From Escherichia coli (GTDB taxonomy: Bacteria; Pseudomonadota; Gammaproteobacteria; Enterobacterales; Enterobacteriaceae), in NCBI RefSeq assembly GCF_003334385.1, contig NZ_QOWN01000090.1: a stretch of DNA of 3,964 nucleotides, one strand, 5' to 3'. Position numbers and translations under genes: made by a program. This document shows, piece by piece, positions 2,866 to 3,903 of this stretch (its first letter is position 1; every line of letters begins with the position of its first letter). The notes beneath the pieces were generated by a model. The model was not told the DNA's origin and did not search any database. It saw only the letters and a list, made by a program, of their open reading frames with translations.

Positions 2866-3660
2866 ATGAAAGGGAAATCTGCATTAACTCTTCTGCTCGC
2901 TGGTATATTTTCGTGCGGCACATGCCAGGCGACAGGGGCAGAAGTGACGAGTGAATCTGTATTTAACATTCTTAATTCCACGGGGGCAGCAACAGATAAA
3001 AGTTATTTATCGTTAAATCCAGATAAGTATCCTAATTATCGTCTTCTGATTCACTCAGCCAAATTACAAAATGAAATAAAGAGCCACTATACCAAAGACG
3101 AAATTCAAGGATTGCTAACATTAACAGAAAACACACGAAAGTTAACGTTGACGGAGAAACCCTGGGGAACGTTTATTCTTGCTTCTACTTTCGAAGATGA
3201 CAAAACAGCGGCAGAAACCCACTATGATGCTGTCTGGTTGAGGGATAGTTTATGGGGCTATATGGCATTAGTATCAGATCAGGGAAATAGTGTAGCCGCA
3301 AAAAAGGTTCTGCTCACCCTGTGGGATTATATGTCTACGCCCGACCAGATTAAGCGGATGCAGGACGTCATTAGCAACCCAAAACGACTGGATGGAATTC
3401 CCGTGCAAATGAATGCTGTGCATATCCGATTTGACAGCAACTCCCCCGTGATGGCAGATGTGCAGGAAGAAGGCAAGCCGCAGCTGTGGAACCATAAACA
3501 AAATGATGCTTTAGGTCTTTACCTTGATCTCCTTATACAAGCAATCAACACTGGTACTATTAACGCTGAAGATTGGCAAAAAGGTGACCGATTAAAGTCG
3601 GTTGCGCTGCTGATTGCTTATCTGGATAAAGCCAATTTCTATGTTATGGAAGATTCCTGA
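2866..3660 (+). CDS. Secreted GH15-family (glucoamylase-like) glycoside hydrolase, N-terminal part, ending at an in-frame TGA
   Basis: ATG 2866 is preferred over the track start 2824 because a signal-peptide-like N-terminus (MKGKSALTLLLAGIFSCGTCQA, then TGAEV) begins there; its ribosome-binding site is weak. GH15 motifs recognised by eye: AVWLRDSLWG (cf. YTWTRDSG) and QNDALGLY (cf. QRDGPAL). The frame stops at TGA 3658..3660, immediately before the catalytic motif. Confidence 0.6.
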   Translation: MKGKSALTLLLAGIFSCGTCQATGAEVTSESVFNILNSTGAATDKSYLSLNPDKYPNYRLLIHSAKLQNEIKSHYTKDEIQGLLTLTENTRKLTLTEKPWGTFILASTFEDDKTAAETHYDAVWLRDSLWGYMALVSDQGNSVAAKKVLLTLWDYMSTPDQIKRMQDVISNPKRLDGIPVQMNAVHIRFDSNSPVMADVQEEGKPQLWNHKQNDALGLYLDLLIQAINTGTINAEDWQKGDRLKSVALLIAYLDKANFYVMEDS

Positions 3661-3903
3661 GCATGGGAAGAAGATGCCCGATTAAACACATCTTCCGTTG
3701 CACTGGTGACCTCTGGACTGGAACGTTTGTCAAACCTACTCTCGAAGAAAGACTCTGTTTTTGTCTCTGATTTACTACGCGAAGCTAAAGTCAATGAACT
3801 GGATGAAACTCTTTCAACAACGAGGTTGAACCACCTCATAGATAAAGGTTATGAAAGAATAACGTTACAGCTTGATTTAGGGGGAGAATCCCATAAGCGC
3901 TAA
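3661..3903 (+). other. Same-frame continuation of the GH15-like gene after the internal TGA, with the WEE catalytic-acid motif; terminates at TAA inside the right repeat
   Basis: Codons after the TGA read AWEEDARLNTSSVALVTSGLERL.. (cf. GH15 DLWEEVNGSSF). This is the same reading frame as 2866..3660 (track ORF 3706..3903 lies in it). The frame ends at 3901..3903 inside the repeat, and the C-terminal half of a GH15 catalytic domain, including the catalytic base region, is absent. Confidence 0.5.

What the first reader, a model, noticed from the sequence alone, without database searches (positions are those of the whole stretch)
2866..3903. GH15-like gene has an in-frame TGA immediately before its catalytic WEE motif
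The reading frame is uninterrupted except for a single TGA (3658..3660), giving ..YVMEDS-stop-AWEEDARLNTSSVALV.., which aligns with the GH15 catalytic-acid region. The simplest explanation is a recent nonsense mutation creating a pseudogene. Alternatives are a sequencing error, or stop-codon recoding; a possible 7-bp stem (3670..3676 with 3689..3695) lies about 10 nt downstream.
Basis: partly seen in the sequence, partly recalled or inferred. Interest (0 to 1): 0.55.

Follow-up and report, generated by a model that had tools for sequence, protein, structure and literature searches.

The report
Known ygeQ pseudogene: nonsense plus IS cut
The in-frame TGA is real, but it is the long-annotated stop codon of the E. 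coli K-12 gene ygeQ, a decaying family-15 glycosidase gene. A Gly codon (GGA) mutated to TGA, and in this strain an insertion sequence also cuts the gene, so the finding is ordinary.

Summary
TGA at 3658-3660 is in frame with ATG 2866 and sits two codons before W267-E268-E269.

The gene is E. coli ygeQ. The window is 100% identical to strain H7 over 75-3892. The 264-codon ORF ending at this TGA is the reference K-12 CDS b2863; the downstream remnant is annotated as pseudogene ygeP.

Intact 536-aa alleles all have GGA (Gly) at codon 265. This Gly is invariant in 32 diverse homologues, within D-S-G-A-W-E-E. The mutation is therefore a G>T nonsense change.

The exact TGA 61-mer occurs in about 945 of 3466 ygeQ-bearing complete E. 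coli genomes. This excludes a sequencing error.

Carriers show secondary damage: IS2 in K-12, IS421 in strain G8 and in this window, and a second nonsense (Q378*) in MDK9L1. In the window, IS421 cuts the gene after codon 342, so the last codons (H-K-R-stop) are IS sequence.

Recoding is not supported. There is no SECIS hit, the 7-bp stem is unremarkable (z -0.23) and is identical in GGA alleles, and the homologous residue is Gly, not Cys.

Verdict: a known, decaying pseudogene of low interest.

Seen in passing, and more interesting: a glyU-integrated mini-island (window up to about 2720) carries the anti-T7 gene PD-T7-4/RAZR. It is followed by conserved consensus T7-RNA-polymerase promoters.

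The parts
2866..3657 (+). ygeQ codons 1-264: N-terminal half of a GH15-like (alpha/alpha)6 protein with a signal/lipoprotein-type leader (MKGKSALTLLLAGIFSC...). Its protein is identical to K-12 YgeQ (WP_000676919.1).
   Evidence: The window is 100% identical to strain H7, whose ygeQ CDS carries the same protein accession as K-12 derivatives. MG1655 annotates b2863 as 'putative lipoprotein YgeQ'.
3658..3660 (+). TGA nonsense codon replacing Gly265 (GGA in intact alleles); a G>T change at 3658.
   Evidence: The alignment with GF31 shows a single-base difference. GGA is present in 4 of 4 intact alleles. G265 is invariant in 32 homologues. The exact TGA 61-mer is in about 945 genomes and the GGA 61-mer in 1656.
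3661..3892 (+). Untranslated remnant (ygeP-equivalent), codons 266-342. It includes W267-E268-E269 (3664-3672), the GH15 acid-catalyst motif.
   Evidence: In frame and identical to H7. W267, E268 and E269 are invariant in the family.
3670..3695 (+). 7-bp stem (3670-3676 / 3689-3695) with a 12-nt loop. It lies in coding sequence and shows no sign of being a recoding signal.
   Evidence: The fold z-score is -0.23. The sequence is identical in the GGA allele of GF31. No Rfam match at E<=10.
3893..3964 (+). End of an IS421 (IS186/IS4-family) copy inserted in ygeQ at the target GGGGGAGAATCCCC. It supplies the codons H-K-R-stop (the C of the His codon, 3892, is shared with ygeQ; the stop is TAA at 3901-3903).
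   Evidence: Homology to H7 and GF31 stops at 3892. The identical 80-nt junction is in 9 complete genomes. In strain G8 the element is annotated as IS421 transposase and is flanked by a duplicated GGGGAGAATCCC.
1..74 (-). The same IS421 end in inverted orientation, inserted in the PD-T7-4/RAZR gene at GGGTTACCTCCCC. Together with 3893-3964 it brackets the window.
   Evidence: Inverted repeat I1. This junction is found in no complete genome.

Best explanation
The gene is E. coli ygeQ, the first chromosomal gene after the glyU tRNA at the edge of the ETT2 region. Its ancestor encoded a 536-aa exported (lipoprotein-type leader) GH15-like (alpha/alpha)6 glycosidase.

In one E. coli lineage that includes K-12, a G>T transversion changed Gly265 (GGA) to TGA. 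Translation then stops two codons before the W-E-E acid-catalyst motif. What remains is a 264-aa fragment lacking the catalytic acid and the C-terminal half of the barrel, i.e. a loss of function.

With selection gone, carriers picked up further lesions. In this strain, an IS421 (IS186-family) element transposed into a GGGG-N6-CCCC hot spot 232 bp downstream and removed the last ~194 codons.

Shown here: the ancestral codon, its invariance, the spread of the allele, the secondary lesions and the IS junction. Inferred: loss of enzymatic function, and that E268/E269 contain the catalytic acid.
For: - TGA is in frame.
- The window is identical to strain H7. Strain H7 and K-12 carry the same YgeQ protein accession, ending at this stop.
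- Intact alleles in GF31, PCP06171, IAI1 and 88-3493 are 1611 nt, collinear, and have GGA at codon 265.
- D263, G265, W267, E268 and E269 are invariant in 32 homologues of 39-76% identity.
- The TGA 61-mer is exact in about 945 of 3466 genomes and the GGA 61-mer in 1656.
- Secondary lesions in TGA carriers: IS2 after nt 1137 in K-12, IS421 with target duplication in G8, and Q378* in MDK9L1.
- GH15 assignment: Pfam E 2.8e-5; the AF2 model with pLDDT 90 finds phosphorylase-kinase GH15-like domains, the GH15 isomaltose glucohydrolase 5z3a and glucoamylases as top Foldseek hits. The profile alignment to PhK alpha/beta pairs DSGAWEE with DFG(I/V)WE.
Against: - In H7 and LR-71-1 the frame downstream of TGA is still fully open (271 codons). 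Decay is therefore not universal, and low-level UGA read-through cannot be excluded there.
- K-12 annotation treats the 264-aa product as a real 'putative lipoprotein'. Whether the fragment is made or has any role was not tested.
- The assignment of E268/E269 as catalytic rests on motif alignment and general knowledge of GH15, not on an experiment.
Confidence: 0.94

Rival explanations
1. Programmed recoding: the UGA is decoded as selenocysteine, or read through as Trp, helped by the downstream stem. A full-length enzyme would then still be made.
For: There is an in-frame UGA with a perfect 7-bp stem starting 10 nt downstream. The downstream frame is still open in H7 and LR-71-1.
Against: - The homologous residue is an invariant Gly, not Cys.
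- The stem is identical in alleles with GGA, so it did not arise with the UGA.
- The fold is no better than shuffles, z -0.23.
- No SECIS or other RNA family matches even at E<=10.
- Carriers accumulate IS insertions and a second stop downstream.
- In this window the gene is truncated at codon 342 anyway.
- Read-through would put Trp at an invariant Gly next to the catalytic motif.
Confidence: 0.02
2. Sequencing or assembly error: the TGA is a miscalled base in this assembly.
For: None beyond the fact that a single base separates it from GGA.
Against: The same 61-mer is exact in about 945 independently sequenced complete genomes, including K-12 derivatives, and it is the annotated stop of b2863 in MG1655.
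Confidence: 0.005
3. The 264-aa N-terminal fragment is a retained, functional lipoprotein (neofunctionalised truncation), not a dead gene.
For: The 264-codon ORF is identical in all six TGA carriers compared, and it keeps its leader peptide. K-12 annotates it as a CDS.
Against: Identity among carriers is equally explained by the youth of the haplotype: the untranslated downstream part is just as identical. In the AF2 model the fragment ends in the middle of the (alpha/alpha)6 barrel and would probably not fold on its own. No family of stand-alone proteins of this length appeared among the homologues.
Confidence: 0.04

Closest known systems
E. coli K-12 ygeQ (b2863) / ygeP (b2862)
   Same: The 264-codon ORF and its TGA stop are the same sequence (same protein accession WP_000676919.1 in strain H7 and K-12 XL1-Blue). 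It sits at the same chromosomal place, next to glyU and the ETT2 remnants.
   Different: In K-12 the downstream remnant is cut by IS2 after nt 1137; here it is cut by IS421 after nt 1027. K-12 has no island between glyU and ygeQ, whereas this strain has a ~4.8-kb integrase island there.
Intact E. coli GH15-family protein (e.g. WP_000676929.1 of IAI1, WP_050488744.1 of GF31; E. albertii orthologue at 76% identity)
   Same: Orthologous gene, 98-99% identical in DNA and collinear over 1611 nt.
   Different: These have GGA (Gly) at codon 265 and a full 536-aa product, with no IS.
GH15 glycoside hydrolases (glucoamylase, glucodextranase, isomaltose glucohydrolase) and the GH15-like domains of phosphorylase kinase alpha/beta
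   Same: Predicted (alpha/alpha)6 fold, a Pfam PF00723 match, and a conserved G-x-W-E(-E) motif. PhK beta/alpha are the best sequence and fold matches among solved structures.
   Different: Only 12-17% identity. The Pfam match covers only the N-terminal half of the model. The substrate and activity of the YgeQ family are unknown. This copy is truncated.
Bacterial selenoprotein genes (UGA plus SECIS hairpin, e.g. fdhF)
   Same: An in-frame UGA followed within about 10 nt by a hairpin.
   Different: No SECIS-like match, the hairpin is not above background and is present in GGA alleles, and the homologous residue is Gly rather than Cys.

Membership tests
Glycoside hydrolase family 15 (ancestral intact gene) | Sequence match to the GH15 profile (Pfam PF00723) | tested here: met
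   The intact allele matches at E 2.8e-5, residues 95-316 to model positions 17-219 of 427. PF00723 is precomputed on many homologues. The match is weak and partial.
Glycoside hydrolase family 15 (ancestral intact gene) | (alpha/alpha)6-barrel catalytic domain resembling solved GH15 structures | tested here: met
   AF2 model with pLDDT 90.1 and pTM 0.90. Top Foldseek hits: PhK beta/alpha GH15-like domains (E 3e-11), the glycosidase entries 5z3a/7c25 (my own knowledge: a GH15 isomaltose glucohydrolase; the search output calls them only 'Glycosidase'), glucoamylases and dextran dextrinase. TM-scores are 0.45-0.72.
Glycoside hydrolase family 15 (ancestral intact gene) | General-acid Glu in a conserved W-E-E type motif | tested here: met
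   W267, E268 and E269 are invariant in 32 homologues and align with DFG(I/V)WE of PhK alpha/beta. That this motif holds the catalytic acid follows from established GH15 enzymology (A. niger W178-E179-E180), which is my own knowledge.
Glycoside hydrolase family 15 (ancestral intact gene) | General-base Glu in the C-terminal half, and hydrolytic activity | not testable with these tools
   Invariant acidic residues exist downstream (E431, D437, E491), but none was mapped to the GH15 base. There are no activity data. In the window this part of the gene is absent.
Nonsense-mutation pseudogene | Orthologues have a sense codon at the position and are otherwise collinear | tested here: met
   GGA in 4 of 4 intact alleles, all 1611 nt with no indels.
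Nonsense-mutation pseudogene | Further disabling lesions accumulate in carriers | tested here: met
   IS2 (K-12), IS421 (G8 and the window) and Q378* (MDK9L1). Two carriers, H7 and LR-71-1, have none.
Selenocysteine / programmed UGA recoding | SECIS-type structured element just 3' of the UGA, linked to the UGA | tested here: not met
   No Rfam match at E<=10. Fold z-score -0.23. The same stem is present in the GGA allele.
Selenocysteine / programmed UGA recoding | Cys (or Sec) at the homologous position in relatives | tested here: not met
   The position is an invariant Gly in 32 homologues.
IS186/IS421 (IS4-family) insertion | IS terminus abutting a GGGG-N6/7-CCCC type target, with a 10-12 bp target duplication | tested here: met
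   The junction is 100% identical to strain G8, where the element is annotated IS421 and is flanked by a duplicated GGGGAGAATCCC. In the window only one side of each copy is visible. The target preference is from my own knowledge of IS186.

The most novel reading that the evidence does not exclude
In strains where the frame after the TGA is still intact (H7, LR-71-1), leaky UGA decoding could yield a small amount of full-length G265W enzyme. Alternatively, the 264-aa lipoprotein fragment could have acquired a role of its own. In either case the K-12-lineage allele would be a down-tuned or repurposed gene rather than a dead one. This cannot apply to the window itself, where IS421 removes the C-terminal third.
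Probability: 0.04. Interest if true: 0.3.

Novelty: already known. Interest (0 to 1): 0.08.

Why it matters
The TGA itself matters little. It explains why K-12-type strains annotate a 264-aa 'YgeQ' and a 'ygeP' pseudogene where other E. coli have one 536-aa GH15-family gene. It also adds one more example of the well-documented mutational attrition around the ETT2 locus (PMC11068852).

The practical value is for annotation:
- ygeQ and ygeP should be read as one disrupted gene.
- The terminal codons in this window are IS-derived.

The window's more promising content lies outside the finding: the glyU mini-island with the anti-T7 gene RAZR followed by conserved T7-polymerase promoters.

Tried and rejected
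- **Selenocysteine or recoding:** the Rfam scan at E<=10 gave only a spurious snoRNA hit elsewhere. The RNA fold of 3655-3715 was no better than shuffles. Rejected.
- **Sequencing error:** rejected by the allele counts.
- **NCBIfam, PHROGs and PADLOC on the intact GH15 protein:** nothing useful.
- **Direct sequence search of the PDB:** only weak PhK hits, so the fold comparison was needed.
- **Literature on ygeQ:** 8 papers hold the word and none of their titles or abstracts concerns this locus; none was opened. Ren et al. 2004 on ETT2 attrition is not in the held library. One paper search failed for lack of capacity.
- **Side observation (island):**
  - Two exact-pattern scans of the species-representative genomes found nothing.
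  - A viral-contig scan found 3 contigs (IMGVR_UViG ids); their origin and content were not examined beyond listing the ORFs of one.
  - The phage database shares only the promoter with window 300-830.
  - ORF 1930-2406 has no match in Pfam, PHROGs, NCBIfam, PADLOC or phage genomes.
  - Paper searches for T7 promoters in islands or satellites gave no relevant report.

Full report
**1. Observation**

Window 2866-3903 translates as one frame with a single internal stop: TGA at 3658-3660 (codon 265). It reads ...FYVMEDS*AWEEDARLNTSSVALV....

The frame is a real gene, not a chance ORF. The whole stretch 75-3892 is 100% identical to the chromosome of E. coli strain H7, and the gene is annotated there and in thousands of genomes as ygeQ.

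**2. What the gene is**

In strains GF31, PCP06171, IAI1 and 88-3493 the same locus holds one 1611-nt gene. It is annotated 'glycoside hydrolase family 15 protein' and encodes 536 aa.

Evidence for the GH15 assignment of the intact protein:
- It matches Pfam PF00723 weakly (E 2.8e-5, N-terminal half of the model).
- An AlphaFold2 model built on 32 homologues is confident (pLDDT 90.1, pTM 0.90).
- Its best Foldseek matches among solved structures are the GH15-like domains of phosphorylase kinase beta/alpha, the glycosidase 5z3a/7c25 (known to me as a GH15 isomaltose glucohydrolase), yeast and fungal glucoamylases, and dextran dextrinase.
- By sequence the only solved relatives are PhK alpha/beta, whose DFG(I/V)WE aligns with DSGAWEE.

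The family is widespread: Escherichia, Yersinia, Commensalibacter, Bifidobacterium, Elusimicrobiota, Bdellovibrionales and others, mostly 500-560 aa. In 32 members of 39-76% identity, D263, G265, W267, E268 and E269 are invariant.

The W-E-E motif holds the general acid in GH15 (A. niger Glu179). That point is established enzymology from my own knowledge, not tested here.

The leader MKGKSALTLLLAGIFSC fits the K-12 annotation 'putative lipoprotein'.

**3. The TGA**

Aligned with GF31, the only difference at the codon is G>T: GGA to TGA. All four intact alleles examined have GGA, and all are collinear with the H7 allele, which has no lesion other than this stop.

Allele counts among 5426 complete E. 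coli genomes:
- 3466 carry the 61-mer around the site.
- About 945 have it exactly with TGA (up to 24 of these may be partial matches). They include the K-12 derivatives XL1-Blue and MC4100.
- 1656 have it exactly with GGA.
- Those with other nearby SNPs that appeared in the sampled rows are annotated as intact GH15 genes.

In MG1655 the TGA is the annotated stop of ygeQ (b2863, 264 aa), and the downstream piece is the pseudogene ygeP (b2862), cut by IS2. This is therefore a known, inherited allele, not a sequencing error.

**4. Age and decay**

Six TGA carriers (window, H7, LR-71-1, XL1-Blue, G8, MDK9L1) differ by 0-1 nt over the compared part of the gene. Intact alleles differ from one another by 15-31 nt. 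The TGA haplotype is thus young relative to E. coli diversity.

Four of the six carriers already have a second lesion:
- IS2 after nt 1137 in K-12.
- IS421 after nt 1027 in G8 and in the window.
- A second nonsense, CAA>TAA at codon 378, in MDK9L1.

This is the pattern expected of a gene released from selection.

**5.

Homology to H7 and GF31 ends at 3892. From 3893 the sequence is the terminus of an IS421/IS186-family element.
- The junction lies in GGGGGAGAATCCCC, the GGGG-N6-CCCC type of site that IS186 prefers (my own knowledge).
- The identical 80-nt junction is found in 9 complete genomes.
- In G8 the element is annotated as IS421 transposase and is flanked by duplicated GGGGAGAATCCC.

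The window begins (1-74) with the same IS end in inverted orientation. That copy is inserted at GGGTTACCTCCCC inside another gene, and this left junction occurs in no complete genome.

**6. Recoding tested and rejected**
- No Rfam family, SECIS models included, matches the region even at E<=10.
- The 61-nt stretch after the UGA folds no better than shuffled sequence: -12.5 against a mean of -11.9 kcal/mol, z -0.23.
- The stem is unchanged in GGA alleles.
- Relatives have Gly, not Cys, at the site.
- Spontaneous UGA read-through would insert Trp at an invariant Gly next to the catalytic motif. In this window the C-terminal third is gone anyway.

**7. Verdict**

The case is the known ygeQ/ygeP pseudogene at the ETT2 border, a region noted for mutational attrition (PMC11068852). 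Novelty: already known. Interest: low.

**8. Seen in passing: the glyU island**

A 39-nt copy of the 3' end of tRNA-Gly at window 2682-2720 marks the right end (attR) of a ~4.8-kb island integrated at glyU. It is absent from IAI1 and K-12. ygeQ lies outside it.

In H7 the island contains, in order:
- A tyrosine integrase.
- A DUF4145 gene that matches the defence gene PD-T7-4 at E 2.9e-100. This gene is now called RAZR, a HEPN RNase activated by the T7 portal protein (PMC13017515). Its last ~80 codons are window 75-314, cut by the left IS copy.
- Directly after its stop, two T7-RNA-polymerase-type promoters (window 319-341 with 2 mismatches to the T7 consensus; 429-451 with 4), pointing at the downstream genes.
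- An antirepressor-like ORF.
- A 158-aa ORF of no known family.

In other islands the promoters are perfect 23-mers (PCP06171, MDK9L1, LR-71-1) or have one mismatch (GF31), even though the upstream cargo gene differs.

They are followed by:
- About 190 nt of nearly invariant non-coding sequence.
- CTTAAAG heptamers (9 against 0.65 expected).
- A 120-nt stretch of 19-20% G+C.

From my own knowledge, this layout recalls T7 replication origins, which are promoters followed by AT-rich DNA.

The conserved element occurs in 91 of 5426 complete E. coli genomes, always on the chromosome. The papers I could search do not mention it.

A T7-polymerase-triggered defence or satellite function is a hypothesis worth its own study. 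It was not tested here.

Noticed in passing
window 319-341 and 429-451 (+); also L002 4245-4267 and 4354-4376; alignment A3: There are T7-RNA-polymerase consensus promoters in a chromosomal island, starting 5 nt after the stop (312-314) of the anti-T7 gene PD-T7-4/RAZR and pointing at the downstream island genes. The window copies have 2 and 4 mismatches. Other islands carry perfect 23-mers (PCP06171, MDK9L1, LR-71-1) or one mismatch (GF31), although the upstream cargo differs. No match is expected by chance. I found no report of this in the papers searched. It could be an infection-triggered switch, a T7-dependent origin or a satellite signal.
   Followed up: partly
window 452-780: About 190 nt of nearly invariant non-coding sequence lies downstream of the promoters (452-640) and is present in 91 of 5426 complete E. 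coli genomes, always on the chromosome. It is followed by CTTAAAG heptamers (9 in the window against 0.65 expected; six on the + strand between 412 and 711) and an AT-rich stretch at 650-770 (G+C 19-20%). It resembles the promoter plus AT-rich layout of T7 origins and the heptamer arrays near T7 ends (my own recollection). Apart from the promoter, it shows no similarity to phage genomes.
   Followed up: partly
window 75-314 (+), with L001 3611-4240: This is the 3' end (about 80 codons) of a DUF4145 gene that matches PADLOC PD-T7-4 at E 2.9e-100. The gene is RAZR, a HEPN RNase activated by T7-type portal proteins (PMC13017515). In this strain it is cut by the left IS421 copy at GGGTTACCTCCCC, so the defence gene is inactivated.
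   Followed up: partly
window 1-74 and 3893-3964: The window is bracketed by the same end of IS421/IS186 in inverted orientation (85-nt inverted repeat, 95% complementary). The right junction is shared with 9 complete genomes; the left junction is shared with none. The window may be a short-read contig ending in collapsed IS copies, or a 3.8-kb segment between two inverted IS copies.
   Followed up: yes
window 2682-2720: A 39-nt copy (95% identical) of the 3' end of tRNA-Gly (glyU) and the bases after it marks attR of a ~4.8-kb integrase island. ygeQ and its upstream region (from about 2719) are native chromosome, as in IAI1 and K-12, which lack the island.
   Followed up: yes
window 925-1629 (or from ATG 829) and 1930-2406 (+): There are two island ORFs downstream of the T7 promoters. 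The first is a 234-aa protein whose first ~100 residues match phage antirepressor (Ant / KilAC-associated) N-terminal domains found in many unrelated phages. The second is a 158-aa protein with no match in Pfam, NCBIfam, PHROGs, PADLOC or the phage genomes. Other islands carry a KilA-N protein in the first position.
   Followed up: partly
one search hit table; window 316, 424 and 483: Homology between this island and those of other strains starts at window 316, 424 or 483, i.e. at or just before the two promoters and at the start of the conserved non-coding block. This suggests modular exchange of the cargo region upstream of the promoters.
   Followed up: no
L005 (strain MDK9L1), ygeQ codon 378: This strain has a second nonsense mutation (CAA>TAA) in a TGA-carrying ygeQ allele. 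It is the only difference from the H7 allele in 1611 nt.
   Followed up: yes
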